From Candidatus Omnitrophota bacterium (GTDB lineage: Bacteria > Omnitrophota > Gorgyraeia > Gygaellales > Profunditerraquicolaceae): a DNA stretch of 64,000 bases. The translations under genes were made by a program, and so were the position numbers. The notes beneath the pieces are model-generated. The model made no database searches. It saw only the letters and a program-made list of their open reading frames with translations, and had not been told where the DNA came from. Shown one piece after another: positions 8,964 to 63,971 of the stretch. The DNA lies in contig JAKLGJ010000001.1 of NCBI GenBank assembly GCA_022710715.1, positions 618,041 through 682,040 of the forward strand, read 5' to 3'. Position 1 is the first letter of the stretch. Each line of letters starts with the position of its first letter.

Positions 8964-9733
8964 TCAGCCGGTGCGATCTTTCCCTTGCCGCAGCATCTCG
9001 CGGTATTTGACGTAGCTCAAGAACTGGTACAAACTGTCGCAGTACGAGATGACGAATCCGTACATCCCGTCCTTATACGCCTGTTTGCGGATATAACGAC
9101 GGAAAAAACGATCAACGGCCCGCCAGAGCATATGCCCGCAGGTCATCCTGCGATCGGTCTTGATCCATTTACGCGCTTCGAGCGTGGTCTGGCGGTTGAC
9201 GCTGCCGAATAAATGCTCCAGATCGGGATAGCCTTTATGGATAATATCCGAATGCAGATGACCGGCGCGGCCTACGCCCAGGACCCGGGGATGGACTTCA
9301 ACCTCTTCGTAGCGCATCTTGTCCCGCAAAAACAGCCGCACCTTGGGCGCCGGGTACCAGCCGCCGTGGCGTACCCAGTAATTGCCGAAAAAAGTACGCA
9401 GCGGGATATCGTAACAGTCGAACGCATCGCTTTTGATCACTCCGGCGATCTCTTCTTTCAATTCCGGGGTGACCGATTCGTCCGCGTCCAGGCTCAAAAC
9501 CCATTTGTTACGCGCCTGGGCATATGCCCAGTTGCGGTGCACGCCTTCATTCTCCATTTTGCGGGTAAGCACTCTGGCGTATTTTCCGGCCACCGCGACT
9601 GTTTTGTCCGTGCTGCAATCGTCCACCAGGATAATCTCGTCCGCCCAGCCGTAAACGCTCTTCAGACACTCTTCGATCCCCTGCTCTTCATTCTTGGCAA
9701 TGATCACTACTGATACGGCGACCGTTACAGCCA
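8964..9733 (-). CDS. GT2 glycosyltransferase (LPS core WaaE/KdtX-like)
   Basis: VSVVIIAKNEE...ILVDDCSTDKT...SLDADE GT2 motifs. True start MAVTVAVS at 9733 with AGGAGG RBS; its ATG overlaps the TGA of the upstream gene (ATGA). The track's longer N-terminus was rejected. Confidence 0.75.
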
Positions 9734-10855
9734 TCAAACCTCCTTGAGCGTGTCCGCCACAAAAGAAATCTGTTCCGGGGTGAGAAACGGATGCATCGGC
9801 AAAGAAACGATCCCCGTGCAGACCCGTTCGGAAACCGGGAAAGCGCCGGCGCGGTACCCCAGCCCGGCATAAGCCTTCTGAAGATGCAGCGGGATCGGAT
9901 AATTCACCATGCATCCGATCTGTTTTTCTTTGAACAGCGCCAGCGCCGCCGCGCGCCGCGGCAGACGCACCGCGTAAATATGGAAAACATGCGAGGAAAA
10001 CTCCGCCCGGCGGGGTTTAAGCGCGCCCAAACCCCGTTGTTCCAGGCAGCGATCGTACAACGCCGCATTGGCAATCCGCCGGCGGTTCCATTGATCGAGC
10101 AGTTTCAATTTCTGCCGCAGGATTGCCGCCTGCAGAGTATCCAGCCGCGAATTATACCCCAGCACCACATGTTCATACTTGGTTTTACGGCCGCAGTCGC
10201 GCAGGCGATAAAGCTTGTCGAAAAGTTTTTTGCTGTCGGTAACGATCATGCCGCCGTCTCCCGCGCCGCCGAGATTTTTGGTGGGGTAAAAGCTGAATGC
10301 TCCGGTATCGCCGATAGAGCCGGCTTTCCGGGGCCGGCCTTTTCCGGATAAGCACAGATATTCTGCGCCATGCGCCTGGCAGGCGTCCTCAATGATCTTC
10401 AAACCGTGCTTGCGGCAGATGCGCATCAGCGGCTGCATATCCGCGCATTGCCCGAAGAGATGCACCGGGATGACCGCTCTGGTGCGCCGGGTAATGACCT
10501 GTTCGATCCGCTCGACGTCGATAGTGTAGGTTTTCTCGTCTATATCCGCAAAGACCGGCCGCGCCCCGGTTGCGGAGACCACGAATGCTGTGGCCACGAA
10601 AGTAAACGCCGGCACGATCACTTCATCGCCCGGGCCGATGCCCATGGCGATCAGGCTCAAGAATAAAGCGTCGGTGCCGGAATTGACTCCCAGCGCAAAG
10701 CGGCTGCCGCAGTAAGCGGCAAATTCCTGCTCGAACAAATGCACATCTTTGCCCAGGATGAAGTCGCCGCGGGTAAAGACGTCTTTGACCGCGCGCTCCA
10801 CTGCCCCGCGCAACGCCTTATGCTGCCCGCGAATGTCTACAAAAGGAACGTTCAT
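9734..10855 (-). CDS. DegT/DnrJ/EryC1/StrS-family PLP-dependent sugar aminotransferase
   Basis: GDEVIVPAFTFVAT, FSFYPTKNLG and YNSRLD motifs; 373 aa. Confidence 0.85.
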   Translation of the reverse strand: MNVPFVDIRGQHKALRGAVERAVKDVFTRGDFILGKDVHLFEQEFAAYCGSRFALGVNSGTDALFLSLIAMGIGPGDEVIVPAFTFVATAFVVSATGARPVFADIDEKTYTIDVERIEQVITRRTRAVIPVHLFGQCADMQPLMRICRKHGLKIIEDACQAHGAEYLCLSGKGRPRKAGSIGDTGAFSFYPTKNLGGAGDGGMIVTDSKKLFDKLYRLRDCGRKTKYEHVVLGYNSRLDTLQAAILRQKLKLLDQWNRRRIANAALYDRCLEQRGLGALKPRRAEFSSHVFHIYAVRLPRRAAALALFKEKQIGCMVNYPIPLHLQKAYAGLGYRAGAFPVSERVCTGIVSLPMHPFLTPEQISFVADTLKEV

Positions 10856-11796
10856 CGTCTATCCTTGAAATACGCCCTGTACCAGTCCACGGTTTGAGCA
10901 ATGCCCTGGCTGAAAGTGGTGGCGGCTTTCCAGCCCAGTTCGCGGCGGATTTTCGAGCAATCCAAAGAATAGCGGATATCGTGGCCGGGCCGGTCGGCGA
11001 CAAACTCGATCAAGGATGCGGGTTGTCCCAGCAGCTTCAGGATCGCCTTCACCGTATCGATGTTCCGGCGCTCCTGGCCGCTGCCGGCATTATAGACGCT
11101 GCCCGGTACGGCTTTCCGCAGCACCTGCCAGACGGCCTGCGCGCAGTCGCCGACAAAGAGCCACTCCCGGACATTCAATCCCCGCGCGTACACCGGCACT
11201 TTCTTATTCTGCAGGGCCTGGCGGATGACCACGGGAATAAGCTTCTCCGGATACTGCCAGGGGCCGTAATTATTCGAAGGCCGGACCACGACGGCAGGTA
11301 AACCGTAGGTGCGGAAATACGCCCGGGCGAGCATATCCGCGGCGGCCTTGCTCACCGAATACGGCGAATTGGGGTTAAACGGGGAATCTTCGCGGAATGT
11401 CCCTTTTTCGATCTCGCCGTACACCTCGTCTGTGGAAATGTGCACGAATTTCTTCACCGGGTAACGCCGGCAGACATCCAGCAGCACCTGGGTGCCGGTG
11501 ACATTGGTGTCCATGAACGGCGTGGCGTCGGCAATGCTGCGGTCGACGTGCGATTCGGCGGCGAAATGCACCACGGCTTCCGGCCGCTCTTTTTCGAATA
11601 CCTGCTTGAGCCTGCGGCTGTCGCAGATATTCACTTTATGGAAACTGATCGCCTGCCTGGCCGGGGCCAGGCGCTTGAGATCGCCGGCATAGGTCAGACA
11701 ATCCACTACCGCCATCTTTGTGCCCGCGCGCGCGCCCTGACGCACGAACTCGCTGCCGATAAATCCGGCTGCGCCGGTAACCAGGATTTTCTTCAT
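10852..11796 (-). CDS. rfbB: dTDP-glucose 4,6-dehydratase
   Basis: MKKILVTGAAGFIGS..., catalytic YSVSKAA, PSNNYGPWQYPEKLIP. Start 11796 has a GAGGA RBS and overlaps the upstream stop (ATGA). Confidence 0.9.
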   Translation of the reverse strand: MKKILVTGAAGFIGSEFVRQGARAGTKMAVVDCLTYAGDLKRLAPARQAISFHKVNICDSRRLKQVFEKERPEAVVHFAAESHVDRSIADATPFMDTNVTGTQVLLDVCRRYPVKKFVHISTDEVYGEIEKGTFREDSPFNPNSPYSVSKAAADMLARAYFRTYGLPAVVVRPSNNYGPWQYPEKLIPVVIRQALQNKKVPVYARGLNVREWLFVGDCAQAVWQVLRKAVPGSVYNAGSGQERRNIDTVKAILKLLGQPASLIEFVADRPGHDIRYSLDCSKIRRELGWKAATTFSQGIAQTVDWYRAYFKDRR

Positions 11797-12626
11797 TTTG
11801 ATCCTCGTTGTTTTAAATACTCGCGCACGCATTCATCCAGCACATCCTGGATCTTGCGCACGGTAAACCCGGTCTTTTCCAGTTTTTTCACCGACATCAC
11901 CAGGTTGGTGCGCACTAACGGCAGCGCGCGGTAATCCATCACGTCATACTTGAAATCCGGAACGTATTTCTTATAGGTATCCATGAGCTGCGTATAGTAT
12001 AAACCGTACTTGTTCACCGTATTGAATATCCCCCGGCCGTCGATCTTGATCAGATGATGGAGCATTTCGCAGAAATCCGGCACATAGGTCACCGAATTCG
12101 GGCAGTCGATCACCTTGCCGTATTTGATCAGTTTATCCAGGATATTCTTGGGATGCGGCCGGTTGTCCAGCGGAATGCGGATGCGGGCGATGAGAATATT
12201 GGATTTCCTGGCCATGATATTCAACGCCTGCTCGGTGTAGATCTTGGTCCGGGAATAATAGAGATCGAAGAAATCCGGCGCTTCCTCCTCGGTAACGGGT
12301 TTTTGCTTGCTGTAATCGAAATGATAAATGCAGCCGCTGGAAATATGCACCAGCTTGACTTTTGTACGGTACGCGGCGTCCGCCATGATGATCGGCACGA
12401 ACGTATTGGCCTGCAACGTGCGGTCTTTGTCGATCTCGCAGTCGTCCACGTTATGCTTGCCGGTGTGGCCGATGCAATTGACGATATGCGTGGGTTTGTG
12501 CCGCTCGATCTCTTCGAGCACGTCGGCAAAACCGTTGACCCGCCGGTCGGTGATCGCCCAGCCGAACTGCTCGTGCAGCCGTTGGCCCATGAACCCTTTC
12601 CCGAAAATCAGAATTTTATATTTCAT
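11793..12626 (-). CDS. RmlD-family NAD(P)-dependent sugar reductase/epimerase (dTDP-4-dehydrorhamnose reductase-like)
   Basis: ILIFGKGFMGQ Rossmann motif and YSRTKIYTEQ YxxxK. Short SDR of 277 aa, visibly lower GC than its neighbours. Confidence 0.55.
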   Translation of the reverse strand: MKYKILIFGKGFMGQRLHEQFGWAITDRRVNGFADVLEEIERHKPTHIVNCIGHTGKHNVDDCEIDKDRTLQANTFVPIIMADAAYRTKVKLVHISSGCIYHFDYSKQKPVTEEEAPDFFDLYYSRTKIYTEQALNIMARKSNILIARIRIPLDNRPHPKNILDKLIKYGKVIDCPNSVTYVPDFCEMLHHLIKIDGRGIFNTVNKYGLYYTQLMDTYKKYVPDFKYDVMDYRALPLVRTNLVMSVKKLEKTGFTVRKIQDVLDECVREYLKQRGSK

Positions 12627-12629
12627 CCT

Positions 12630-13487
12630 CTACTCCAGTGAAAGCAGATAGTCGCCGTAGCTGGTATGGATCCCCGCGGCCAGGGCGCGCAATTGTTTTT
12701 TGTCGATATATCCCTGGCGATACGCGATCTCCTCGATACAGCCGACTTTCAAGCCCTGCCGGTCTTCCACGGTTTTGATGAATATGGACGCGTCGATCAG
12801 CGATTGGTAGGTGCCGGTATCCAGCCAGGCGAACCCGCGGCCCAGAGGCAGCACTTTCAGGTTACCTTCTTTTAGATACACGTTGTTCACATCCGTGATC
12901 TCCAGTTCGCCGCGCTTCGAAGGCTTGATGTTCTTCGCGATATCCACTACCCGGCGATCGTAAAAATACAATCCGGTCACCGCCCAGTTCGATTTGGGTC
13001 TGGCCGGTTTTTCGGCAATGGATTTTGCCCGGCACCGGGCGTCGAACTCGATCACCCCGTAACGCTGGGGATCCCGGACGTAATAACTCAAAATATACGC
13101 GCCTTTTTTCAGCGCCGCCGCCTGTTTGAGTATCTCGGTAAGGTCATGGCCGTAGAAAATATTATCCCCCAGGATCAGGCTCACGCTGTCTTTGCCGATG
13201 AAGTCTTCCCCGATAAGGAAGCTCTGGGCGATGCCTGCGGGTTTGGGCTGTTCGGCGTAACTGATGCTGATCCCCAGTTCACCCCCGCTGCCCAGAAGAT
13301 CCCGGAAGCGCGGCAGATCTTTGGGCGTGGAGATCACCAGGATCTCGCGGATACCCGCGAGCATCAAAACCGACAGCGGGTAATAGATCATCGGCTTGTC
13401 GTAGATGGGCAGCAGCTGCTTGCAAACGCCTTTGGTGATCGGATACAGCCGTGTGGCTTTACCGCCTGCTAATAGTATGCCTTTCAT
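12630..13487 (-). CDS. rfbA: Glucose-1-phosphate thymidylyltransferase
   Basis: [19 protein letters not shown]..., [15 protein letters not shown]. Start ATG at 13487 confirmed by eye; the track's 100-aa Arg/Gly-rich N-terminal extension was rejected. Confidence 0.9.
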
Positions 13488-13531: not shown

Positions 13532-15244
13532 TTACTTTTTTGAGACCAGGTAATCGCCCATGGCCAGGTAATCCAGCCCGCTTTCTTTGAACATCAACAA
13601 AGCGTCGCGCGGCGAACAGATCATCGGCTCTCCCCGGCGGTTGAGCGAAGTGTTGATCACCACCGGAACTCCGGATAACCGGTGAAAATCCTGGATTAAC
13701 TGGTAGAACCGGGGATTGGTTTCCTTTTCCACGATCTGCGGCCGGCAGGTTCCGTCCACATGCACCACTTCCGGAATGCGCTCTTTCCATTTCAAAGCGG
13801 CTTTGAAAGCGATGGTCATGAACGGCGCAGGATGGTTCGACTGCAGGATATCCGGCGCAAATTCTTTGAGCAGCGATGGGCAGAACGGCCGCCAGTTCTC
13901 CCGGAACTTGATGATTTCATTGATCCGGTCGGCTGTTCCGCGGATAGTGGGATTGCCCAGAATGCTGCGATTGCCCAAAGCCCGCGGTCCCCATTCCATC
14001 CGTCCCTGAAACCAGCCCACGATCTCGCCCTGCTGCAGCAGCGTCGCGGCCTTGAGACAGATATTCTTTTCCAGGTGATACTCGTATCCGCAGGTGGATA
14101 ACGCCTGTTCGATCTCCCAGGCTGCGAATTCCGGCCCCAGATACGCGTGGCGCATGGGCGCAATCCGTTCTCCCAGCCGCACCCCCGCATAGGCTGCAGC
14201 GCCCAGCGAACCGCCGGCGTCGCCGCTGGCCGGCTGCACCCAGAGATGCTTGATATACGGTTGTTCGAGCAGAATACGATTCATCGCCACATTCAGCGCT
14301 ACTCCGCCGGCAAAACAGAGATTGCCGTGCATTTCGAGTTCCGGTTTCAGATACGCCTCGATCAAGCGCAGGGTGATATCCTCCAGAGATTTCTGCGTGG
14401 CGGCGGCAATATGAATATACGGTTCGGACAAACCGTCCCCCGTGCGTTCCGGTCCGAATTCCCTGACCATGCGCCGGGAATAAACTTTATCCACCCGGAA
14501 ACGTTTCGACCGTTGCACCCAGACATACGCGTCGCTGCAATGATAGGTTTTGCGCGCGGCGTCCCAGCGGATCAAACGGCTCAAATCGGATTTAACCGGA
14601 TCGCCGAACGGGGCCATCCCCATGACTTTATATTCCCCGTCGCCCCGCTCGAATCCCAGATAATCCGTCATGGTGGCGTAAAAATCGCCGAGTGAATCCG
14701 GCGCCAGTATCTCTTTGAGTTTACGGATATCCTTACCGGCCGCCGTACCCAGAAGCGTGGACGCCAGCTCTCCGCCGGCGTCGATAGACATCACCGCGGC
14801 GCGTTCCATCCCGGAAAAATAAAACGCGGAAGCGGCATGCGCCAGATGATGCTCCACCCATTCCAGCTTCACTTTGAGCGGATCGAATCCGCACTGCTCG
14901 AGGGTGCCGAAAATATGCTTTATTTCTCCGCGCAGTTCGCGCCGGTTCCGGAAGAATTTCTTGAAAGCCCGGCTGGGGCGGGTAAACATGGTTCGCAACA
15001 GGTACTCCACGCGATGGTCGCGCAGAGCGTGAAATGACCAGGGGAACGCCACGCAGTCGATATCCGACGGTTTGAGCCCGGCCGCGTCCAGACAAAATTT
15101 CACCGCATTGACCGGCATCTGGCCGTCGGCGTGCTTTTTCCGCGTAAAACGCTCTTCTTCTGCGCCGGCTATGACTTTACCGTCGACTAAAATGGCCGCC
15201 GAATGATCGTGTCCGAACGGCGCGGCCAGTCCAAGAATTTTCAT
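13532..15244 (-). CDS. NodU/CmcH-family O-carbamoyltransferase
   Basis: [19 protein letters not shown]... Kae1/HypF-like N-terminal domain plus C-terminal carbamoyltransferase domain; 570 aa. Confidence 0.85.
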
Positions 15245-22868: not shown

Positions 22869-22870
22869 AT

Positions 22871-42380: not shown

Positions 42381-42381
42381 C

Positions 42382-47178: not shown

Positions 47179-47179
47179 A

Positions 47180-48370: not shown

Positions 48371-48380
48371 TGATCAGGCC

Positions 48381-56888: not shown

Positions 56889-57931
56889 AATTCCTCCTTG
56901 CCGCTTCTGCTGGCCAGCACGCGTTTGTATTCGTTCTGGGCGTTACGCGCTATCCGGGCGGCGCCGGCAGGATCCCGCTCCACGCTGTCCATCTTTTCCT
57001 GAAAATCGCTGAAATCCCATTTAAAAGGGATATACATATCCTTCTGCCAGATATCCGGCCAGGTTTCCAGATGGCTCATATCCTGCTTGATCAAAGCCGC
57101 ACCGCTGATAGTCAGCTCGAAATCACGGTAGCAGACTTCTCCGTAACCGAACGGGCTCAACCCTGCGAGGGCGTGCTTGATTTCTTTGAGATATTCCGGC
57201 CTGGCGATCCGCTCAAGCGGAATCCGTCCGGCAAGCATCTGTTGGATGCGCTTGCGCGGAAAGGCCACGGTATCCTTGGAATAGGAGCCTCCCAGCCTGC
57301 AGGTAAATTTGAGCGGCCGGTCCGTACCGGGCGCCACCCAGCAATTCGAATAGAACCGGGGAAGAGCGTCGCAATAGAACAACAACCGGGCATACGCGCT
57401 GTTCAAGAAACCGTAATCGGACATCCCCAGATTCCAGCTCGCTTTGATCTTGCACAACTGGTCTTCCCGGGGAATACGGTTCAAATGCGGCGGATCCTGT
57501 TTGCTGTCGGCGATCCCGAAACGCGCATGGTAAAAATCCGTAAAGATGCGGGAACCGTAGTGCGGCCGCAGATACTGCCGTTTATCGCGTAAAACCTGGC
57601 ACTTCAGATAGGTATCCACGTACGGGAGCACGTCGAACTGGGTGGTGCCGCTGCTGTCCGACAGATCCATCCAGTACACCCTCTCGCAATACCGGCGGCA
57701 ATCCTGCAGGAAATGGAAGATCCGCCCCGGGTCAACGCCCCAGTCGTTCCTGAAGCGCCGGCTCATTACGCATACCGCGAAAGCGCCTTTCTTCAGCCGA
57801 TCAACGTCCCTGGCGTATTCAATGCGATAGCCGTCCCCGGCAAAATCGCGTTGATGATATTTGACCGGAAAAACAAAAGCCAGCTCGTTCCAGTTATATT
57901 CGCCGGTGCCCAGAATCACAATCCGCTTCAC
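56858..57931 (-). CDS. Hypothetical protein (no recognisable family)
   Basis: 357 aa, soluble. Strong in-operon spacing, overlapping both neighbours by a few nt. No motif I can name. Confidence 0.35.
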   Translation of the reverse strand: MKRIVILGTGEYNWNELAFVFPVKYHQRDFAGDGYRIEYARDVDRLKKGAFAVCVMSRRFRNDWGVDPGRIFHFLQDCRRYCERVYWMDLSDSSGTTQFDVLPYVDTYLKCQVLRDKRQYLRPHYGSRIFTDFYHARFGIADSKQDPPHLNRIPREDQLCKIKASWNLGMSDYGFLNSAYARLLFYCDALPRFYSNCWVAPGTDRPLKFTCRLGGSYSKDTVAFPRKRIQQMLAGRIPLERIARPEYLKEIKHALAGLSPFGYGEVCYRDFELTISGAALIKQDMSHLETWPDIWQKDMYIPFKWDFSDFQEKMDSVERDPAGAARIARNAQNEYKRVLASRSGKEEFCDRFRRLMG

Positions 57932-59721
57932 AATAATTCTCCTTTAGCGAACGTCGCGTAGAGCGTGCGGAATTCCGCGGATTTCGCCGAAAGCTCATCG
58001 AGAGACCCCGACGCTTCGATCCGTCCTTCTTTCATCACGATCACCGCATCACAGTATTTCAGCGTGGTATAGCGGTGCGCGACAATGATCATTGTCATCT
58101 TCCCCATCAGGTTTTTAAGCGATTCGTTGAAACTGTTCTCGGTAACCGAGTCGAGAGAATTGGTAGCTTCGTCAAGGATCAGTATGGTCGGCTCACGATA
58201 AAGCGCCCGGGCAATACCGATCCGCTGGCGCTGCCCGCCGGAAATGCGCACGCCCTTATCCCCGATCTCGGTTTGCAGCCCCAGCGGCAAAGAAGCGATG
58301 AATTCGGTGAGCTGGGCAATACGTACGGCTTTCTCCATGCGTTGGGCATCAACCTCTGCCCCGAAAGCAATGTTGACCGCAATCGTATCATCGAGCAAAA
58401 ATGTCTGCTGGGGCACGTAGCCGACTATAGAGTGAAAATCGTTAAGGTTCGCTTCTTCCAGCACCTTGGCATCGCAGACAATCCGGCCGCTGGAAACAGG
58501 CAGAAGCCCCAGCAGAACATCGACAAAAGTGCTTTTACCTGCGCCGGAACTTCCGATTATCCCGAGCGAACTGTTCTTGCCGATACGCAGGGATATATCG
58601 CACAGCGCCTTGCGGTGTGCACCGGGATAAAGAAAATCGATATGCTCCAGAGCAATACTCTTATCGAACGAGAACCGGTGCCGGCCCGCTGCGGCACTAC
58701 TGCTGCCGCGTTTGCTCTGGCGCAGAGCGCTGCTGATAATCTCCACTCCAGGCGCATATTTCTTGATCATGCCGATAGAATTGAATATTTTGTCTGCGGA
58801 GGGCAGGAACTTCTGCACCGTGAGCGCAAGCAGGCTGATCACCGGCAGCGCCGATGCAATACTGCCGCGCGACGCAAGCAGATACAGCAGGGTCAAGAGC
58901 AGCAAAGCGAAAGCGCCGAGATTCAGGATCATTCCGGGCAAACCGGCGATCATCTTCAGCCGTACGCCCAGGCGCGAGCCGATGGTAAGCGCCGATTCGA
59001 ACTTCGACATAAAATACCCTTCGGAATGACAAACCTTGATGTCCTTGAATCCCCCCAGTATCTCATACGTGGATTTGAACATCTTCCGGCTGCATAATTC
59101 GCTTTCCCTGCCGATGGCAGAAATGCGTTTACGCGTCGTACTGATGATACCGAAGGTCAACAGGCTGATGCTCAAAGAAACCAGCAGCACCAGCACCGGA
59201 TCCACCACCAGCAGCAAGAGCACCAGCGTCAGAGACACGATGCTTTCAGTCAAGAGGTTAAGGAACGTGCTGATGCTCGAGACCACGTTCGAAACCTCTT
59301 CCAACAGGTGTTTAGTCAGGACTGCGGTGTTGACGGAGAGGAATTCAACGTAGGGCATGCGCACGTATCCTCCCAACAGCTCCATGGAAAGACGGTTGCG
59401 CAGATGAGCGGTAAACAGGCTCTGAAAATAAAGGTTCGCCGCCGATACCAGACCTCGTACAACCAGCACCACGAAAACGCCGCTTCCCAGAAACAGGAAA
59501 AAGTGGCGCTGCGACGTAAAATGCAGACCGGAGTAGATCCGCGCGAGCAGCCGGTTGCGCTGGATCAGTTCCGGATCGGTCAGCAGAGTGATATAGGAAA
59601 AAATCGAACTGAATCCTGCGAGTTCCAGCAGCGCCAGCAGGATCATCAGCAGCATCAGCCCCAGGAACATTTTCTTTTCCCGGGCGCTCAAAAACGAAAA
59701 AATGAATTTTATCAGTGCCAT
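57928..59721 (-). CDS. ABC exporter, fused permease-ATPase (MsbA/type I exporter-like)
   Basis: Six N-terminal TM segments; Walker A GSSGAGKST, signature LSGGQRQRIGIARAL, Walker B ILILDEAT; 597 aa. Confidence 0.9.
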   Translation of the reverse strand: MALIKFIFSFLSAREKKMFLGLMLLMILLALLELAGFSSIFSYITLLTDPELIQRNRLLARIYSGLHFTSQRHFFLFLGSGVFVVLVVRGLVSAANLYFQSLFTAHLRNRLSMELLGGYVRMPYVEFLSVNTAVLTKHLLEEVSNVVSSISTFLNLLTESIVSLTLVLLLLVVDPVLVLLVSLSISLLTFGIISTTRKRISAIGRESELCSRKMFKSTYEILGGFKDIKVCHSEGYFMSKFESALTIGSRLGVRLKMIAGLPGMILNLGAFALLLLTLLYLLASRGSIASALPVISLLALTVQKFLPSADKIFNSIGMIKKYAPGVEIISSALRQSKRGSSSAAAGRHRFSFDKSIALEHIDFLYPGAHRKALCDISLRIGKNSSLGIIGSSGAGKSTFVDVLLGLLPVSSGRIVCDAKVLEEANLNDFHSIVGYVPQQTFLLDDTIAVNIAFGAEVDAQRMEKAVRIAQLTEFIASLPLGLQTEIGDKGVRISGGQRQRIGIARALYREPTILILDEATNSLDSVTENSFNESLKNLMGKMTMIIVAHRYTTLKYCDAVIVMKEGRIEASGSLDELSAKSAEFRTLYATFAKGELL

Positions 59722-59724: not shown

Positions 59725-61263
59725 TTAATACTCGAATTGGCTGTTGGTAAAACGATTAACCAGATCATAGGTATAGCTGTAGCTTTCTTTGCGGAAATAC
59801 GCGTGCACTTCATCCTTGTCGAACACCGCCCGATTATTCTCGTCCATGCGGCAGACGAACATCCGCACCCGCCGGAGGAACTGCTCACGCACATCTTCGG
59901 ATAACAGGTACGGATGCGGGGTGAACAGGATCACGGGTTTATCGGTTTTCATCACCTCGACCAATGACCCGCCGGTAATGTTCTCGGACACGAATGCATC
60001 CGCGGCGCAACCCCGGCGCAGCATTTCGGTAAGGGGCGTATCCATGATCTCGACGGAACCTCCGAACATTTGCGAAAAGAATGCGGTTTGCTGCTTCAGG
60101 GCCCGCGATTTCCGGTGAAATTTCACCACGACCTTCAGCCCGCAGGCCAGAAGTTCTTTGACGATCCTGACTTCCAGATCGAACCGCTGGATCTCCGAGA
60201 GCAAACCGACGAAAGTGCGATCCCCGCTGAAACTGCCCGACAGGAACATCACCCGGCGGATACGGCCGTAACTGCCGGATCCTGTACGGTGCGCGCCGTT
60301 ATCGGGAAGGACTTCCAGCGAAGCAGTCGGTTGCCTCTTCAGCGCTGCCGCCTGCCGCTCCCGCCCGATCCGCTCTGCCTGCGTGTAACAGAAGAATGTG
60401 GACGCGGTAAGCTGCTCAACCAGCCAGTAACCGGGAAAATCCACCCAGAAAAAACCGCCGCCGTGGGGAAATGCGCACACCGTGCCGCCCTGCGATTTCA
60501 CCGCGGTGGAAACGACTCGGGTCGAAAAAGCCCCCTGGGTGGCGGTATACAGCCTGCGCACCCTGCCGGTCAAAGACTTTTGTTTCAATACGCCGATCGT
60601 GCCGGCGATGAACGCGACGCTGTAGTCGATAAAATCCTTGAGATGCTTTTGCGCTTCGTCGGAGACGGTCATCGGCATCGCTGCGTCGCGGAAATAACCG
60701 AATATCTTTCCACCCAACACCGGCTTGACCGCCACGGGAGCCTCGAAACGGTCAAAAGGCGAAAACCAGTCATAGGTTTTGCTCCGGAAGAACCGGACGC
60801 CGTTCATTTTTAGATACGATTCGACGGTAATATTGGAATTAAGCAATACCTGCTGCGTCGGTCTCCACAGCAATTTTCTGATCGCGTACTTGGCCAGGGT
60901 TTTCGGGTCGGCGTAGGATACGGGCCGCTTGACAAAGAAACGGGCGTCCAGGCGCGTGCCGTTGATCAGCCACGAATAGAAATCTATCGGGCTGGGCGTA
61001 TACTTATCTATGCGCTCGCCGCGTTGTTTGAAACCGTCGATCACCCTTTGCGACATATACACGGTAAAAAAGTACAAAATCAGATACGGGACGAACACCC
61101 TGATGATCTCTTCCTGCAACTGGTCGGTCTCGTTATCGATCAGAGCGATCCCTGCGGCGACCAACCGGTCATAGAGCAGGTCTTTCTCCGGTTCCGCTAC
61201 GGGCCAGAAAAAGCTTTTTTCAAAAAAAGACGGGTCATTAACCGACGCCAGATTGATGAACAT
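59725..61263 (-). CDS. Hypothetical protein, possible GT-B-like capsule-synthesis/TagF-like transferase
   Basis: About 513 aa. The C-terminal region (FPHGGGFF...ENITGGSLVEVMKTDKPVILF) resembles the tail of KpsC/KpsS/TagF-type transferases, but this is not a confident assignment. Confidence 0.35.
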   Translation of the reverse strand: MFINLASVNDPSFFEKSFFWPVAEPEKDLLYDRLVAAGIALIDNETDQLQEEIIRVFVPYLILYFFTVYMSQRVIDGFKQRGERIDKYTPSPIDFYSWLINGTRLDARFFVKRPVSYADPKTLAKYAIRKLLWRPTQQVLLNSNITVESYLKMNGVRFFRSKTYDWFSPFDRFEAPVAVKPVLGGKIFGYFRDAAMPMTVSDEAQKHLKDFIDYSVAFIAGTIGVLKQKSLTGRVRRLYTATQGAFSTRVVSTAVKSQGGTVCAFPHGGGFFWVDFPGYWLVEQLTASTFFCYTQAERIGRERQAAALKRQPTASLEVLPDNGAHRTGSGSYGRIRRVMFLSGSFSGDRTFVGLLSEIQRFDLEVRIVKELLACGLKVVVKFHRKSRALKQQTAFFSQMFGGSVEIMDTPLTEMLRRGCAADAFVSENITGGSLVEVMKTDKPVILFTPHPYLLSEDVREQFLRRVRMFVCRMDENNRAVFDKDEVHAYFRKESYSYTYDLVNRFTNSQFEY

Positions 61264-61265
61264 AT

Positions 61266-62423
61266 TCAGGACACCCGGTGCAGCAGCTTCCACTCGCCGT
61301 CGACCTTCTCCCACAGATGCGGCGAACGCCAGCTGTCGATCACTTCGTTAAAATAGTCTTCGGTAATGTCGCAATACTCGAGGAATTCCTTAAAATGCCG
61401 TTTGGGAAATTCTCCGTCGTATTTCTGGACGAGCTTCACCCCTTCCTCCCGGGTCAGATGACCGTCCCGGATCTCGTGCGCGGAATCGCTGGTCGCCCTG
61501 CCGATACCGAATTTGATAAAAGCCAGATAATAATGGTACCCGTCGGTTTTATCGTCAAGCGAAGCATATTTGGAATAGGTTCCCTCCGACCGGACCGGAT
61601 TGGCGACAAAACCGGTGTTCTTGGAGCAATAATAGTAATTCTCCTGGGGCGTCCACTTCTTGTAATAACCGTAGAACGTGATCTGATTCTTGAACACTTC
61701 CATCTCTTTGACGCCGGGCGGCAGGTACGGCTGCAGGTCCGCCTCGCTGATCCCGTATTTGACCAGGTCTTCCGGCCCCAGACCGGAGAACCCGAACTTC
61801 TTCTGGTCGGCCACCGGACGCGTGGGCGTGAACGCGCTCTTCATATCCCCGCCGTACTCGCCCTCGGCGTTCTCTCCGTACATCACTACGGGAATATCGA
61901 ACTTTGCCGCGATGCGCAGCGGGAAATTGGTCTGACCGTAAATGAACGGCTGGAACGGATCGCCGAGGATCTCGAAAGCGAGCTTCGTCAGCTTGCGGTG
62001 TATCCTGCCGTTGGGGGTGCCCAGGATATTGTCCAGGCCGCCCACCTGGCACATCGCCTGGAAATTCCTGAAACCGATATCGGTATACAGATGCGGGGCC
62101 CAAGTGACGGTGAGCACATTCATCCCGTAGTTGTATTTCAGGTCATGCGCGATAAAACCCGAGTCCTTGCCGCCGCTGGCAGCGACGAGCACTTCATAAC
62201 CGCCGTCTTTGCGTTTGAGTTTGCTCAACATCTCGCGCAGCTCGGCTTCGCGCTGGTTCCAGTCTATCCGGGTCTTCTTGATATCCGCGAACAGACACGC
62301 GGAACATACCCCTTCCTCATTGAAAGTGATCCGCGGCCGCTGGTTGGAAATAGTGCAGCGTTTGCAGTATTTAACCTCCCGCGGAAGATTGTACAGCTTG
62401 ATCACGTCCTTCTTCTCGACCAT
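61266..62423 (-). CDS. N-acetyl-sugar amidotransferase (WbpG/PseA/WbuX family PP-loop ATPase)
   Basis: N-terminal CKRC...CSAC zinc ribbon; SGGKDS PP-loop; 385 aa. Sits directly downstream of the HisH/HisF-like pair. Confidence 0.8.
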   Translation of the reverse strand: MVEKKDVIKLYNLPREVKYCKRCTISNQRPRITFNEEGVCSACLFADIKKTRIDWNQREAELREMLSKLKRKDGGYEVLVAASGGKDSGFIAHDLKYNYGMNVLTVTWAPHLYTDIGFRNFQAMCQVGGLDNILGTPNGRIHRKLTKLAFEILGDPFQPFIYGQTNFPLRIAAKFDIPVVMYGENAEGEYGGDMKSAFTPTRPVADQKKFGFSGLGPEDLVKYGISEADLQPYLPPGVKEMEVFKNQITFYGYYKKWTPQENYYYCSKNTGFVANPVRSEGTYSKYASLDDKTDGYHYYLAFIKFGIGRATSDSAHEIRDGHLTREEGVKLVQKYDGEFPKRHFKEFLEYCDITEDYFNEVIDSWRSPHLWEKVDGEWKLLHRVS

Positions 62424-63090
62424 GCAGTCCTCCTTTAACGATCTCGTCTTTGAAATTCCGATAAATGCGCAGCCCCATGCCGGCGCTTTTCTCCGGATGG
62501 AATTGAAAAGCCGTCACCGCGCCCTTCCTTAAAGCGCTGCAAAAAGCGGCACCTCCGTAAACCGATTGCAGGATACTCACGTTTTCCTGCGTCTGAACAT
62601 AATAGGAATGCACGAAATACATATATCCGCGGTCGGGTATCCCGTTCAGGATCGGATCGACGCCTGTTTTTCCCTCGGGCAGAAAAACCCTGGACCAGCC
62701 CACATGAGGAATGCGCACTTTTTGTCCGGCAGCATCGACGCCGGGAAAACGCCTGACTGCGCCCCGGACAATACCCAGTCCCCGGGAAGCGCCGAACTCA
62801 TCGCTGGAATCCAGAAGCAACTGCATGCCCAGACAGATACCCATCAGCGGCTTACCCTGCGCGATAAAAGACTTGATCCCGGATACCAGGCCGCGCGCCT
62901 CGAGTTCGGTCATGGCATATCCGAAAGCGCCTACGCCCGGCAGGATCGCGCCCGCGGCATTCGAGAGTACCCGGGGATCGGAAGTGATCACCGCCTTCAG
63001 GCCGACGCCTGCGCAGGCCTGCATCACGCTGAATAAATTACTCATGCCATAGTCGATTACGGCTATGTAGCCGCCGGCAGGTTCTATCAT
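62371..63090 (-). CDS. HisH-like glutamine amidotransferase subunit (WbuY-like)
   Basis: IAVIDYGMSNLFSV, catalytic GICLGMQLL, class I GATase fold. Start at 63090 overlaps the HisF-like stop (ATGA). Confidence 0.85.
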   Translation of the reverse strand: MIEPAGGYIAVIDYGMSNLFSVMQACAGVGLKAVITSDPRVLSNAAGAILPGVGAFGYAMTELEARGLVSGIKSFIAQGKPLMGICLGMQLLLDSSDEFGASRGLGIVRGAVRRFPGVDAAGQKVRIPHVGWSRVFLPEGKTGVDPILNGIPDRGYMYFVHSYYVQTQENVSILQSVYGGAAFCSALRKGAVTAFQFHPEKSAGMGLRIYRNFKDEIVKGGLHGREEGRDQAVQSSAGG

Positions 63091-63971
63091 CTTGGAAGAG
63101 ACTCCTCCCCGGCGGTGCAACGCACCTCCAAACCGGCGGCCTCCAGGCATTCTTTGATCTGCCCAATGGAAGCGCAGGGATTGGTCGCAATCCTGTTCAC
63201 GCTGGCTAAAAATTCGCGGTTACCTTCACGGTTCGAAGACACTTCTATGGTATCGATATAATGCTGTACGAAATGGTAATGCAGCAATGAAGCCACGGCC
63301 ACGGCGTCGGCATGCCCGTCCTGTACTGCCGCGACGGCGTCGAGCGGCCGGCCGGCGCCTCCGCAGGCGATGACCGGAATGGAGACGGCGTCCGTTACCA
63401 TCCTGACCAATTCCAGATCGAATCCCGACCCCGTGCCCTCGCGATCCACGGAAGTCACCAGCAATTCGCCGGCTCCCAGTTGTTCCGCCCGGCGCGCCCA
63501 CTGCAGGACTTCCAGACCGGTATATTCCCTGCCGTTGTCCGTATAGGCCAGGTAAGCGCCATCCAGCTGTTTGATCGCTTCGATGGAAATAACCACGGTC
63601 GAAGAGCCGAATTCCCGCGCCGCCCTGGTGATCAGGGCGGGCTCGTTGATGGCCGCGGTGTTGAATGCCACCCGGTCGGCGCCCGCTCGCAGCACTGCCC
63701 GCATATCCGCGATGCTCCTCAACCCGCCGCCGACCGTCAAAGGGATGAAGGTTTCTTTCGCGGTTTTGGCGATAATATCGTGGAGGCTGTTACGGTTATA
63801 CAGGCTGGCCACGATATCCATATAGAGCAGCTCGTCCGCGCCGTTCTCATAATAATACCTGGCGAACTGCTCCGGCGTACCCAGCACCCGCAGCCCTTCC
63901 AGATGAATACCTTTGACCAGATTAGGCCCTTTTATATCCAGCCGGGGGATGATCCTTATGCAATGCGACAT
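63087..63971 (-). CDS. HisF-like cyclase subunit (WbuZ-like)
   Basis: (beta/alpha)8 HisF signature LDIKGPNLVKG...VGGGLRS...VSVDREGTGSGFD...IACGGAG. Confidence 0.85.
   Translation of the reverse strand: MSHCIRIIPRLDIKGPNLVKGIHLEGLRVLGTPEQFARYYYENGADELLYMDIVASLYNRNSLHDIIAKTAKETFIPLTVGGGLRSIADMRAVLRAGADRVAFNTAAINEPALITRAAREFGSSTVVISIEAIKQLDGAYLAYTDNGREYTGLEVLQWARRAEQLGAGELLVTSVDREGTGSGFDLELVRMVTDAVSIPVIACGGAGRPLDAVAAVQDGHADAVAVASLLHYHFVQHYIDTIEVSSNREGNREFLASVNRIATNPCASIGQIKECLEAAGLEVRCTAGEESLPR

What the first reader, a model, noticed from the sequence alone, without database searches (positions are those of the whole stretch)
8964..63971. 55-kb single-strand glycan supercluster that brings together several nucleotide-sugar pathways
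Every gene from gmhB to the window end is on the minus strand with minimal or overlapping spacing, and the region lacks obvious internal terminators. It carries dTDP (rfbA, rfbB, two RmlD-like, cupins), CDP-dideoxyhexose (rfbF, rfbG, rfbH-like), a UDP-diNAc-uronate module (WbpB/E/D-like), an acetamidino trio, wecB, a heptose enzyme, at least 11 glycosyltransferases, a WaaL-like ligase, a Wzy-like polymerase, an initiating transferase and an ABC exporter. Core-type and O-antigen-type functions are interleaved rather than in separate loci, and both Wzy-type and ABC-type export components are present.
Basis: seen in the sequence. Interest (0 to 1): 0.55.

Follow-up and report, generated by a model that had tools for sequence, protein, structure and literature searches.

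The report
Giant surface-sugar gene cluster in Omnitrophota
This is a real, intact and unusually long (at least 84 kb, about 79 genes) chromosomal locus for building cell-surface sugars in an uncultured Omnitrophota bacterium from anaerobic digesters; it is a large example of a well-known kind of locus, not a new kind of system.

Summary
Positions 8,964-63,971 carry 50 intact minus-strand genes. The span is 99.5% coding, 29 of 49 gene junctions overlap and no gap exceeds 50 nt. Promoter-like and terminator-like sites are at chance level. Family searches confirm RfbA, RfbB, RfbF, RfbH and WbuX/HisH above curated cut-offs. They also support WbpD/WbpE-like enzymes, 12 glycosyltransferases, a PglC-like initiating transferase, two Wzy_C membrane proteins and one ABC exporter.

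Three corrections:
- The window cuts the cluster. On the source contig (a 1.62-Mb Candidatus Omnitrophota contig, 100% identical) same-strand sugar genes run at least 29 kb further. These include a complete legionaminic-acid pathway next to the acetamidino trio, and the upstream boundary was not reached.
- One-strandedness is regional. About 96 genes over at least 102 kb, including priA, gap and the rpmG-to-rpoC block, share the strand, as they do in distant relatives.
- The ABC protein is a PglK/MsbA-type half-transporter. No Wzx, Wzz, Wzm/Wzt, WbpA or RfbI is in the window, so "both export routes" is overstated.

Relatives share a conserved backbone (GT9, DegT-GT2-GmhB-GT28-PriA) that holds extra sugar modules here. 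An unannotated 522-aa protein is predicted to have a GT-B fold. Verdict: new member of a known kind.

The parts
8326..8889 (-). GmhB-like HAD phosphatase (heptose 1,7-bisphosphate phosphatase).
   Evidence: Pfam HAD families. Best NCBIfam hit is NF006506 at 141.8 bits, below its cut-off of 178. Conserved at 49-57% identity in relatives.
8964..9734 (-). GT2 glycosyltransferase (256 aa), conserved backbone.
   Evidence: PF00535. 51-66% identical in relatives L013-L016, always next to DegT and GmhB.
9734..10855 (-). DegT-family sugar aminotransferase, conserved backbone.
   Evidence: PF01041 at 390 bits. 46-62% identical in relatives.
10852..13487 (-). dTDP-sugar module: RfbB (10852-11796), a divergent RmlD-like SDR (11793-12626) and RfbA (12630-13487).
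   Evidence: TIGR01181 at 413.7 bits (cut-off 365) and TIGR01207 at 466.3 bits (cut-off 361). The short SDR is about 70% identical at full length in L015 and L016, so it is not a pseudogene.
13532..15244 (-). NodU/CmcH-type carbamoyltransferase.
   Evidence: PF02543 and PF16861. 72-81% identical in L015 and L016.
15257..16360 (-). GT2 glycosyltransferase.
   Evidence: PF00535 and PF13641.
16350..20738 (-). CDP-3,6-dideoxyhexose module: RfbH (16350-17660), RmlD-type reductase (17648-18538), cupin (18531-18980), CDP-glucose 4,6-dehydratase-like (18964-19950) and RfbF (19950-20738).
   Evidence: NF011936 RfbH at 695 bits (cut-off 423). TIGR02623 at 351 bits (cut-off 300). TIGR02622 at 223 bits (below its cut-off of 278). 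TIGR01214 at 211 bits (below its cut-off of 224). No E3 reductase (RfbI/AscD) in the window.
20728..23347 (-). GT2 (20728-21777), GT9 heptosyltransferase-family protein (21774-22862) and DUF4254 (22871-23347).
   Evidence: PF00535, PF01075 and PF14063. TIGR02195 at 111 bits, below its cut-off of 134.6. The GT9 gene is 40-42% identical in L013 and L014, where it abuts DegT/GT2.
23352..24557 (-). WaaL-like Wzy_C membrane protein (401 aa, about 8 hydrophobic segments).
   Evidence: PF04932 at 70.5 bits. Weak match to the solved WaaL structure 7tpg, E 1.3e-3. Hydropathy.
24571..26400 (-). WbpM/PglF-type membrane-anchored UDP-GlcNAc 4,6-dehydratase.
   Evidence: PF02719 at 392 bits plus PF13727.
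26401..26450 (-). Largest intergenic gap in the cluster, carrying the best promoter-like site (TTGCCA-16 nt-TATAAT, 11 of 12).
   Evidence: A consensus match only.
26451..27023 (-). Small PglC-like polyprenyl-phosphate sugar-phosphate transferase (190 aa), the initiating enzyme.
   Evidence: PF02397 at 189 bits; TIGR03025 C-terminal domain.
27011..31522 (-). SDR epimerase/reductase (27011-28009), FAD oxidoreductase (28006-29139) and two GT4 glycosyltransferases (29157-30374, 30371-31522).
31507..36693 (-). Tailoring block: B12-binding radical SAM enzyme (31507-32973), glutamine-dependent AsnB-type amidotransferase (32970-34868), 281-aa protein with a weak SAM-methyltransferase match (34883-35728) and a methyltransferase (35725-36693).
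   Evidence: TIGR01536 at 439 bits (cut-off 267). for the 281-aa protein.
36674..38272 (-). DUF2079 polytopic membrane protein (532 aa, about 9 hydrophobic segments).
   Evidence: PF09852 at 136 bits.
38277..39467 (-). WecB-type non-hydrolysing UDP-GlcNAc 2-epimerase.
   Evidence: PF02350. TIGR00236 at 198 bits, below its cut-off of 210.
39460..44539 (-). Branched or methylated deoxysugar block: RmlD-like reductase (39460-40359), TylCIII-type sugar C-methyltransferase (40346-41626), two GT2 (41643-42380, 42382-43107), SDR (43112-44086) and cupin (44099-44539).
   Evidence: PF08421, PF08484, PF00535, PF01370 and PF00908.
44565..46025 (-). Second Wzy_C-domain membrane protein (486 aa, about 10 hydrophobic segments). 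It could be a polymerase, a second ligase or an O-oligosaccharyltransferase.
   Evidence: PF04932 at 33.3 bits, cut-off 31.7. No PDB sequence match..
46027..49340 (-). Two GT4 glycosyltransferases (46027-47178, 47180-48349) and an FkbM-type methyltransferase (48381-49340).
49363..52077 (-). 2,3-diacetamido-sugar module: WbpE-like aminotransferase (49363-50520), WbpD/WlbB-like N-acetyltransferase (50517-51113) and a GFO/MocA 3-dehydrogenase (51097-52077).
   Evidence: PDB 3nu7 WbpE, E 1.7e-69. PDB 3mqg WlbB, E 1e-59. Best NCBIfam hit for the dehydrogenase is archaeal UDP-GlcNAc 3-dehydrogenase at 164 bits, below its cut-off of 450.
52067..55641 (-). Two paralogous Asn-synthase-domain proteins (591 and 601 aa) with no detected glutaminase domain. 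Candidate sugar carboxylate amidating enzymes.
   Evidence: PF00733 only. 63-nt repeat at 86% identity between them.
55638..57931 (-). GT1-family glycosyltransferase (55638-56861) and a 357-aa protein with a weak GT match (56858-57931).
57928..59721 (-). Fused TMD-NBD ABC half-transporter of the PglK/MsbA type. The only candidate flippase or exporter in the window.
   Evidence: PF00664 and PF00005. Best NCBIfam hits are PglK at 328 bits and MsbA at 279 bits, both below their cut-offs.
59725..61293 (-). 522-aa soluble protein of an unannotated family, predicted to have a GT-B glycosyltransferase fold.
   Evidence: No Pfam, NCBIfam or PDB sequence hit. 230 representatives among 1.84 billion. AlphaFold2 model pLDDT 91.8. 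Foldseek matches GT-B enzymes including polysialyltransferase 5wcn. 3 of 50 relatives weakly hit PF07388.
61266..63971 (-). Acetamidino (amidotransferase) trio: WbuX (61266-62423), HisH/WbuY (62371-63090) and WbuZ (63087-63971). It is the 3' end of a legionaminic-acid module that continues beyond the window.
   Evidence: TIGR03573 at 340 bits (cut-off 203). TIGR01855 at 188 bits (cut-off 105). TIGR03572 at 265 bits, below its cut-off of 300. Upstream genes.
1..8329 (-). Same-strand housekeeping flank: SpeE-like (cut by the window start), gap, two GalT-like paralogues, fmt, priA and a GT28/MGDG-synthase-like protein.
   Evidence: Synteny is conserved in relatives.

Best explanation
The region is a native, intact chromosomal locus for cell-surface glycan synthesis, most likely lipopolysaccharide core plus O-antigen-type glycan. 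It belongs to an uncultured Candidatus Omnitrophota bacterium found repeatedly in anaerobic-digester metagenomes.

Shown:
- 50 intact, tightly packed genes in 8,964-63,971.
- Continuation for at least 29 further genes (about 29 kb) beyond the window end, giving at least 84 kb and about 79 genes with the upstream boundary not reached.
- The locus sits inside a run of at least 102 kb and about 96 co-directional genes that also contains priA, fmt, gap and the rpmG-to-rpoC block.
- Relatives share a backbone (GT9, then DegT-GT2-GmhB-GT28-PriA). In this genome, dTDP and CDP sugar modules lie between GT9 and DegT.

Inferred mechanism:
- Cytoplasmic enzymes make several activated sugars: dTDP-4-amino-6-deoxyhexose or a carbamoylated derivative, a CDP-3,6-dideoxyhexose, a C-methylated deoxyhexose, UDP-2,3-diacetamido sugar(s) that may be amidated, and CMP-legionaminic acid carrying an acetamidino group.
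- The PglC-like phosphoglycosyltransferase starts a chain on undecaprenyl phosphate, using a product of the adjacent WbpM/PglF dehydratase.
- The 12-13 glycosyltransferases extend the chain.
- The PglK/MsbA-type ABC half-transporter flips it, as in the Helicobacter Wzk and Campylobacter PglK routes.
- A WaaL-like Wzy_C protein joins it to a heptose-containing core. The second Wzy_C protein polymerises it or transfers it to another acceptor.

The single strand reflects the architecture of this chromosomal region, with the coding strand G-rich throughout. It is not proof of one operon.
For: - Gene content and intactness.
- Identity with, and colinearity to, two independent long assemblies.
- Taxon: NCBI names identical proteins 'Candidatus Omnitrophota bacterium'. 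The nearest PriA relatives are Omnitrophota MAGs.
- Continuation upstream. LegB, LegC, NeuB, NeuC and NeuD score above NCBIfam cut-offs.
- Same-strand housekeeping flank. The region is co-directional in relatives. GC skew is negative across the whole window.
- Native composition: GC3 is 0.60-0.76 in cluster genes and 0.63-0.68 in the flank.
- Backbone and insertion pattern.
- Flippase: the only polytopic membrane proteins are the two Wzy_C proteins, DUF2079, WbpM and the ABC protein. The ABC protein's best hit is PglK. No Wzx, Wzz or Wzm Pfam hit.
- No RNA genes or Rfam elements in the window.
Against: - No lipid A or Kdo genes lie in the window, so attachment to LPS is inferred only from GT9, GmhB, DUF4254 and a WaaL-like protein. 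All of these score below NCBIfam equivalog cut-offs.
- WaaL, Wzy and PglL-type O-oligosaccharyltransferases share the Wzy_C domain and cannot be told apart here.
- Pathways are incomplete within the window: no RfbI/E3 reductase, no WbpA, and no clear RmlC.
- A Wzx or Wzz could be encoded elsewhere in the genome or among the unannotated upstream genes.
- No transcript data are available. One promoter-like site (26,437-26,410) suggests more than one transcription unit.
- The locus may make several separate products rather than one.
Confidence: 0.8

Rival explanations
1. The array is several adjacent, functionally separate loci that happen to share a strand, not one supercluster making one glycan. 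Candidates are an LPS core/O-antigen part, a PglK/PglC/PglF-type lipid-linked oligosaccharide used for general protein O-glycosylation by a PglL-like Wzy_C enzyme, and a poly- or oligo-nonulosonic acid (capsule-like or appendage) part. This overlaps with the best explanation and is not exclusive of it.
For: - Two Wzy_C proteins 20 kb apart.
- The PglC-like transferase, the PglF-like dehydratase and the PglK-like ABC protein resemble protein-glycosylation loci.
- The legionaminic-acid genes form their own block with two CMP-transferases and two NeuB/NeuC pairs.
- A promoter-like site lies in the only 50-nt gap.
- Relatives keep only sub-blocks.
- The nonulosonic-acid tailoring block recurs on its own in an unrelated bacterium.
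Against: - No STT3/PglB and no PglL-specific domain was detected.
- Only one candidate flippase is present for the whole array.
- Gene spacing gives no sign of module boundaries.
Confidence: 0.4
2. The locus is a chimeric assembly artefact or a decaying, pseudogenised remnant.
For: Several low-coverage assemblies break at recurrent positions (about 23.94, 31.79, 38.11 and 45.5 kb).
Against: - Two independent long contigs (1.62 Mb from JGI, 646 kb from ENA/NCBI) are 100% identical across the junctions. The shorter contigs are 99.96-100% identical.
- No gene has an internal stop, and domain matches are near full length.
- The one short-looking SDR is conserved at full length in relatives.
Confidence: 0.02
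3. The cluster is a recently acquired genomic island, and horizontal transfer explains why core-type and O-antigen-type genes are mixed.
For: - Surface-polysaccharide cassettes are reported as hypervariable in Omnitrophota genomes (preprint 10.64898/2026.06.07.730766).
- Adjacent genes show uneven identity to another genome: HisH 76%, WbuX 93%, the 522-aa protein 74%.
- Recurrent contig breaks.
Against: - GC and GC3 are uniform and equal to the housekeeping flank.
- No tRNA, integrase, transposase or flanking repeats.
- The 3' third of the locus is syntenic in relatives with only 45% PriA identity.
Confidence: 0.15

Closest known systems
Leptospira rfb (LPS) locus
   Same: Very large, gene-dense LPS locus that mixes sugar-nucleotide pathways, many glycosyltransferases, core heptosyltransferase-type genes, a polymerase and a ligase. 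It is reported to exceed 100 kb in some strains (PMC13111663).
   Different: Different phylum. Leptospira has annotated Wzx and Wzy (same paper), whereas no Wzx was found in this window and the flippase candidate is a PglK-type ABC protein. The genome here is much smaller: the locus is at least 5% of a 1.62-Mb contig.
Helicobacter pylori Wzk / Campylobacter jejuni PglK routes (ABC half-transporter flips a complete undecaprenyl-linked glycan for a WaaL or an oligosaccharyltransferase); recalled from my own knowledge
   Same: Fused TMD-NBD ABC protein whose best match is PglK. A small PglC-like initiating transferase and a PglF/WbpM dehydratase lie side by side. A WaaL-like protein is present, and no Wzx was found.
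   Different: The PglK score is far below the equivalog cut-off (328 against 1000). No PglB/STT3. A second Wzy_C protein suggests an extra polymerisation or transfer step. Function was not tested.
Pseudomonas aeruginosa O5 wbp / Bordetella wlb pathway to UDP-2,3-diacetamido-2,3-dideoxy-mannuronic acid
   Same: The acetyltransferase matches WlbB (3mqg) at E 1e-59, and the aminotransferase matches WbpE structures at E 1.7e-69. They lie next to a GFO/MocA dehydrogenase. A WbpM-type dehydratase is also in the locus.
   Different: No WbpA-type 6-dehydrogenase in the window. The dehydrogenase's best match is the archaeal UDP-GlcNAc 3-dehydrogenase, below cut-off. The candidate 2-epimerase is 11 kb away. 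Two Asn-synthase-like genes are adjacent.
Legionaminic acid pathways with acetamidino modification (Legionella pneumophila O-antigen; Campylobacter jejuni flagellin leg/ptm genes); comparison from my own knowledge
   Same: LegB, LegC, NeuD-type acetyltransferase, NeuC-type epimerase and NeuB-type synthase score above NCBIfam cut-offs. A CBS-nucleotidyltransferase (PtmE-like architecture), CMP-transferases and a WbuX/HisH/WbuZ trio are present.
   Different: It lies in an LPS-type locus rather than next to flagellin genes. Extra tailoring genes are present (ACPs, AMP-ligase, GNAT, radical SAM enzymes, FkbH-like, MaoC). There is a second NeuB/NeuC/CMP-transferase set.
Salmonella/Yersinia CDP-3,6-dideoxyhexose genes (rfbFGHI / ascA-F)
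   Same: RfbF and RfbH score above their cut-offs, and a CDP-glucose 4,6-dehydratase-like gene, a cupin and a reductase are contiguous. This resembles the ascarylose-type set.
   Different: No RfbI/AscD iron-sulfur flavoprotein reductase in the window. The dehydratase and the reductase score slightly below their cut-offs.
Hypervariable polysaccharide cassettes of Omnitrophota genomes (preprint 10.64898/2026.06.07.730766)
   Same: Same phylum. That paper lists LPS/capsule glycosyltransferase and polysaccharide genes among variable loci and describes a 25-kb polysaccharide cassette.
   Different: This locus is more than three times longer. Its 3' third is conserved and syntenic with priA in distant relatives. 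Variability was not shown here.

Membership tests
O-antigen / LPS-type polysaccharide gene cluster | Clustered nucleotide-sugar synthesis genes plus multiple glycosyltransferases | tested here: met
   RfbA, RfbB, RfbF and RfbH score above NCBIfam cut-offs. 12 glycosyltransferases by Pfam.
O-antigen / LPS-type polysaccharide gene cluster | Initiating polyprenyl-phosphate sugar-phosphate transferase | tested here: met
   PF02397 at 189 bits, 190 aa.
O-antigen / LPS-type polysaccharide gene cluster | WaaL O-antigen ligase | tested here: inconclusive
   Two Wzy_C proteins. The 401-aa one weakly matches the WaaL structure 7tpg at E 1.3e-3. The domain is shared with Wzy and PglL.
O-antigen / LPS-type polysaccharide gene cluster | Product attached to lipid A-core | not testable with these tools
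   No lipid A or Kdo genes in the window. This needs the whole genome or chemical analysis.
Wzx/Wzy-dependent pathway | Wzx (MOP-family) flippase | tested here: not met
   No full-length Polysacc_synt/MOP-family protein among the 58 proteins. The only hit to a family of that clan is a weak PF14667 match (28.5 bits, about at the 28.7 cut-off) on the 149-aa soluble cupin at 18531-18980, which I take as spurious. No unassigned polytopic membrane protein remains. The rest of the genome was not searched.
Wzx/Wzy-dependent pathway | Wzy polymerase | tested here: inconclusive
   A 486-aa protein with about 10 hydrophobic segments and a Wzy_C domain at 33 bits.
Wzx/Wzy-dependent pathway | Wzz chain-length regulator | tested here: not met
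   No Wzz/PCP hit in the window.
ABC-transporter-dependent O-antigen pathway (Wzm/Wzt) | Separate ABC-2 permease (Wzm) and ATPase (Wzt) | tested here: not met
   The only ABC protein is a fused ABC_membrane + ABC_tran half-transporter.
PglK/Wzk/MsbA-type lipid-linked glycan flippase | Fused TMD-NBD exporter closest to PglK or MsbA | tested here: inconclusive
   The architecture fits. Best NCBIfam hits are PglK at 328 bits (cut-off 1000) and MsbA at 279 bits (cut-off 602).
dTDP-rhamnose-type pathway (RmlABCD) | RmlA and RmlB | tested here: met
   466 bits and 414 bits, both above cut-offs.
dTDP-rhamnose-type pathway (RmlABCD) | RmlC 3,5-epimerase and RmlD reductase | tested here: inconclusive
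   The cupins hit PF00908 only weakly, at 31-38 bits. The best RmlD-like gene scores 211 bits against a cut-off of 224, and it sits in the CDP module.
CDP-3,6-dideoxyhexose pathway | RfbF, RfbG and RfbH | tested here: met
   RfbF at 351 bits (cut-off 300) and RfbH at 695 bits (cut-off 423). RfbG-like at 223 bits is slightly below its cut-off of 278.
CDP-3,6-dideoxyhexose pathway | E3 reductase (RfbI/AscD) | tested here: not met
   No ferredoxin-reductase-type protein in the window.
UDP-2,3-diacetamido-uronate pathway (WbpA/B/E/D/I) | WbpE aminotransferase and WbpD acetyltransferase | tested here: met
   PDB WbpE at E 1.7e-69 and PDB WlbB (3mqg) at E 1e-59.
UDP-2,3-diacetamido-uronate pathway (WbpA/B/E/D/I) | WbpA UDP-GlcNAc 6-dehydrogenase (makes the uronate) | tested here: not met
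   No UDPG_MGDP_dh hit in the window.
UDP-2,3-diacetamido-uronate pathway (WbpA/B/E/D/I) | WbpB 3-dehydrogenase | tested here: inconclusive
   The GFO/MocA family is confirmed. The best specific hit is archaeal UDP-GlcNAc 3-dehydrogenase at 164 bits (cut-off 450). Top PDB hits are generic oxidoreductases.
WbuX/WbuY/WbuZ sugar acetamidino system | All three components adjacent | tested here: met
   WbuX at 340 bits (cut-off 203) and HisH at 188 bits (cut-off 105). WbuZ is the best hit for its gene at 265 bits (cut-off 300).
Legionaminic acid biosynthesis (outside the window) | LegB, LegC, acetyltransferase, hydrolysing 2-epimerase, synthase and CMP-transferase | tested here: met
   LegB at 481 bits (cut-off 475), LegC at 457 (420), NeuD family at 205 (161), NeuC at 332 (236) and NeuB at 447 (400). 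The cytidylyltransferases are below the PseF cut-off.
Bacterial polysialyltransferase (GT38), considered for the 522-aa protein | Sequence membership in PF07388 | tested here: not met
   The window protein has no hit. Only 3 of 50 relatives hit weakly, best E 2e-4. The shared fold class (GT-B) is seen with 5wcn at E 2e-4 and TM 0.27.

The most novel reading that the evidence does not exclude
The array could be one of the largest contiguous glycan loci relative to genome size: at least 84 kb and at least 5% of a 1.62-Mb contig. It belongs to a phylum in which most members are reported to be ultra-small cells with host-dependent traits (PMC10066038).

It could also encode chemistry not yet described. 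The 522-aa protein would be the founding example of a new GT-B glycosyltransferase family that is linked to WbuX and Asn-synthase-like amidotransferases and handles amidated or nonulosonic sugars. The B12-radical-SAM, FkbH, ACP, AMP-ligase and MaoC genes would add unusual acyl or methyl groups to legionaminic acid. The resulting coat would then mediate attachment to host cells.
Probability: 0.25. Interest if true: 0.6.

Novelty: new member of a known kind. Interest (0 to 1): 0.35.

Why it matters
Omnitrophota are uncultured, and a large genomic survey proposes host-dependent, predatory or parasitic lifestyles for many of them (PMC10066038). That survey has no LPS or capsule terms and only a passing mention of target-cell polysaccharides, so their surface chemistry is little described there. 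A bacterium that devotes about one-twentieth of a small genome to one glycan locus points to the cell surface as a major investment. It also gives concrete targets, including a candidate new glycosyltransferase family, legionaminic-acid tailoring genes and a PglK-type flippase paired with WaaL-type proteins. For glycobiology in general the locus is a large but recognisable variation on known themes.

Tried and rejected
- Assembly chimera: rejected. Two independent long contigs are 100% identical.
- Pseudogenisation: rejected. No gene has an internal stop, and the short RmlD-like gene is conserved at full length in relatives.
- Foreign island by composition: not supported. GC and GC3 are uniform, and there are no tRNA genes, mobile-element genes or flanking repeats.
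- Regulatory RNA such as JUMPstart: no Rfam match anywhere in the window.
- Repeats as the cause of the recurrent contig breaks: none found. The breaks remain unexplained.
- The 522-aa protein as a Wzx/Wzy-type membrane protein: rejected. It has only one weak hydrophobic segment.
- First structure model of that protein, built from 3 sequences: unusable at pLDDT 43. The 50-sequence alignment gave pLDDT 91.8.
- Profile search of its family against PDB sequences: only designed helical proteins, uninformative.
- Metagenome scan intended to extend the locus: it returned two unrelated nonulosonic-acid loci (L030, L031) instead of the source contig.
The boundary was still not reached.
- Two Leptospira papers were searched for the size and strand of the rfb locus without a usable statement. 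A third paper gave the size.

Full report
**Observation**

The whole 64-kb window, not only 8,964-63,971, is filled by minus-strand ORFs. A greedy selection of long ORFs gives 58 genes. The four plus-strand picks are shadow ORFs over minus-strand genes that have domain matches.

Start codons were taken from independent gene calls on identical public contigs, and from ribosome-binding-site context for rfbA and one GT2. On that basis:
- 29 of 49 junctions overlap, and no gap is longer than 50 nt.
- No gene has an internal stop.
- Promoter-like and terminator-like consensus sites occur at the frequency of shuffled sequence in all segments.
- The only convincing hairpin terminator (16-bp stem, 1130-1095) follows gap, outside the cluster.
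- The best promoter-like site (TTGCCA-16 nt-TATAAT) lies in the single 50-nt gap at 26,401-26,450, upstream of the WbpM/PglF gene.
- There are no tRNA genes and no Rfam matches.

**Origin and reality of the sequence**

- The window is 100% identical and colinear with JGI contig Ga0116241_10000002 (1.62 Mb). Window position w corresponds to record position 1,033,452 + w - 1, and this relation was checked on three separate fetches.
- An independent 646-kb ENA/NCBI assembly (ERZ761563 NODE_4, which is GCA_035390565.1) is identical over 33,112-64,000 and beyond.
- Shorter contigs from other samples are 99.96-100% identical.
- NCBI names identical proteins "Candidatus Omnitrophota bacterium". The nearest PriA homologues among species-representative genomes are Omnitrophota MAGs at 45-47% identity.
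- GC and GC3 are uniform across the cluster and equal to the housekeeping flank.

A chimera, pseudogenisation and recent foreign origin are therefore not supported.

**Gene content**

NCBIfam equivalog cut-offs are passed by RfbA, RfbB, RfbF, RfbH, WbuX and HisH. Just below their cut-offs are the CDP-glucose 4,6-dehydratase-like gene, one RmlD, WecB and WbuZ.

For the Wbp-like module:
- The acetyltransferase matches the WlbB structure 3mqg at E 1e-59.
- The aminotransferase matches WbpE structures at E 1.7e-69.
- The adjacent GFO/MocA dehydrogenase is only assignable to its family.

Other parts are:
- 12 Pfam glycosyltransferases (five GT2, one GT9, four GT4 and two GT1-like);
- a 190-aa PglC-like initiating transferase next to a WbpM/PglF dehydratase;
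- two Wzy_C membrane proteins (401 and 486 aa);
- a DUF2079 membrane protein;
- a carbamoyltransferase, a sugar C-methyltransferase and a B12-radical-SAM enzyme;
- an AsnB-type amidotransferase and two Asn-synthase-domain paralogues;
- one ABC protein.

Not found in the window are Wzx, Wzz, Wzm/Wzt, a UDP-sugar 6-dehydrogenase (WbpA) and an RfbI/AscD reductase. The only hit to a Wzx-related family is a weak Polysacc_synt_C match on the 149-aa soluble cupin at 18,531-18,980, which I take as spurious. The ABC protein is a fused half-transporter whose best matches are PglK and then MsbA.

**True extent**

Look-ups around the last window gene, followed by two upstream steps, show that same-strand sugar genes continue to at least window-equivalent position 92,973. 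From the window end outward they are:
- a CMP-transferase, a PIG-L deacetylase and an acyltransferase-methyltransferase fusion;
- an unknown protein, a radical SAM enzyme, a GNAT, an AMP-ligase, an ACP and a methyltransferase;
- a full legionaminic-acid set, with LegB, LegC, NeuD-type, NeuC-type and NeuB-type enzymes all above NCBIfam cut-offs and a CBS-nucleotidyltransferase;
- a second CMP-transferase/NeuC/NeuB set and a polysaccharide deacetylase;
- another B12-radical-SAM enzyme, MaoC, an ACP and an FkbH-like protein;
- two unknown proteins, a methyltransferase, a nucleotidyltransferase and an aminotransferase.

The array is therefore at least 84 kb and about 79 genes, and the boundary was not reached. 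The acetamidino trio at the window end belongs to this nonulosonic-acid module.

**Strand uniformity**

Downstream of the window start the same strand carries the rest of a 748-aa SpeE-like gene and then rpmG-secE-nusG-rplKAJL-rpoB-rpoC. In total about 96 called genes over at least 102 kb share one strand.

In relatives with only 38-47% PriA identity, the equivalent 11-22-kb regions (three of 21-22 kb, one of 11 kb) are also entirely co-directional. GC skew is negative on the plus strand throughout the window.

One-strandedness is thus a property of this chromosomal region in the lineage. It is not evidence for a single glycan operon.

**Comparison with relatives**

- L015 and L016 keep carbamoyltransferase-RfbA-SDR-RfbB-(a second carbamoyltransferase)-DegT-GT2-GmhB-GT28-PriA-Fmt-GalT x2-Gap at 45-82% identity.
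- L013 and L014 place a GT9 gene directly upstream of the DegT/GT2 pair.
- In the window, about 11 kb (the dTDP and CDP modules plus two GT2 genes) lie between GT9 and DegT.

The interleaving of core-type and O-antigen-type genes therefore looks like a conserved backbone that holds additional modules in this genome.

**The 522-aa protein (59,725-61,293)**

- It has no Pfam, NCBIfam or PDB sequence match.
- Only three clusters were found by the word-indexed search.
- It has 230 representatives among 1.84 billion proteins, most of them about 500-560 aa.
- With a 50-sequence alignment AlphaFold2 gives pLDDT 91.8.
- Foldseek matches GT-B enzymes, including NeuC epimerases, LanGT2, an LPS glycosyltransferase and the polysialyltransferase 5wcn, at E 5e-5 to 2e-4 and low TM scores.
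- Three of 50 relatives weakly hit the polysialyltransferase Pfam family.
- Homologues lie next to HisH-WbuX in one genome and next to an Asn-synthase-like gene in another.

I infer a glycosyltransferase of an undescribed family that acts on amidated or nonulosonic sugars. Only the fold class and the gene linkage are shown.

**Mechanism**

The parts fit a route in which:
1. A PglC-like enzyme starts a chain on undecaprenyl phosphate.
2. Soluble glycosyltransferases extend it.
3. The PglK/MsbA-type ABC protein flips it.
4. A WaaL-type Wzy_C protein transfers it to a heptose-containing core.

This is comparable to the Helicobacter Wzk route (from my own knowledge). The second Wzy_C protein could be a polymerase, a second ligase or a PglL-like protein O-glycosyltransferase. 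The data cannot separate these, and the array may well feed more than one glycoconjugate.

**Novelty**

LPS loci above 100 kb are known in Leptospira (PMC13111663). Polysaccharide cassettes are already noted as variable loci in Omnitrophota (preprint 10.64898/2026.06.07.730766). The main Omnitrophota survey mentions polysaccharides once, in passing, and has no LPS or capsule terms (PMC10066038).

The finding is therefore a large new member of a known kind. Its points of interest are its size relative to the genome, the PglK-type flippase paired with WaaL-type proteins, the elaborate legionaminic-acid tailoring genes and a candidate new GT-B family.

Noticed in passing
window 23,939-23,948; 31,783-31,790; 38,109-38,118; about 45,445-45,565: Contigs from independent low-coverage assemblies of the same population end at nearly the same positions, within a few to about 120 bases at each site. 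No repeat in the window or in the fetched flanks explains this. These may be boundaries of strain-variable blocks.
   Followed up: partly
window 2,280-4,330: Two tandem paralogous GalT/HIT-like genes (Pfam GalP_UDP_transf, DUF4931, DUF4921) lie between fmt and gap. The pair is conserved at 60-82% identity in distant Omnitrophota relatives, and its function is unknown.
   Followed up: partly
window 1,095-1,130 (minus strand): A strong intrinsic-terminator-like hairpin (16-bp stem followed by a T-rich tail) lies in the 57-nt gap after gap. It is the only convincing terminator in the 64 kb.
   Followed up: no
window 1-1,087 and L001:11,108-13,354: A 748-aa protein with several hydrophobic segments followed by a spermidine-synthase domain sits between gap and rpmG. 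It is conserved at this position in relatives.
   Followed up: no
L032:10,001-16,355 and L041:1,599-10,678: A block of radical SAM enzyme, unknown protein, methyltransferase, ACP, AMP-ligase, GNAT, NeuC-like epimerase and a 225-aa methyltransferase recurs in an unrelated genome ('bacterium K02(2017)'). This suggests a portable cassette for acylating nonulosonic acids.
   Followed up: partly
L036:2,281-8,992: Further upstream lie two unannotated proteins of about 437 aa, an FkbH-like protein, a second ACP, a MaoC dehydratase and a second B12-radical-SAM enzyme. These are an unusual set for a sugar locus, possibly making a glyceryl- or hydroxyacyl-type substituent.
   Followed up: no
L039 (GCA_022703135.1), corresponding to window 59,915-63,069: In another genome, the homologues of HisH, WbuX and the 522-aa protein are adjacent but are 76%, 93% and 74% identical to the window proteins. 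The unevenness hints at mosaic exchange.
   Followed up: no
window 18,531-18,980: The 149-aa cupin gives a weak Pfam hit to Polysacc_synt_C as well as to dTDP_sugar_isom and FdtA. The Polysacc_synt_C hit is probably spurious.
   Followed up: no
L014 (CAYOSQ010000005.1): A MAG labelled 'uncultured Planctomycetia' carries the same GT9-DegT-GT2-SDR-GmhB-GT28-PriA-Fmt-GalT x2-Gap synteny as the Omnitrophota genomes. Either the label is wrong or the synteny is older than the phylum.
   Followed up: no
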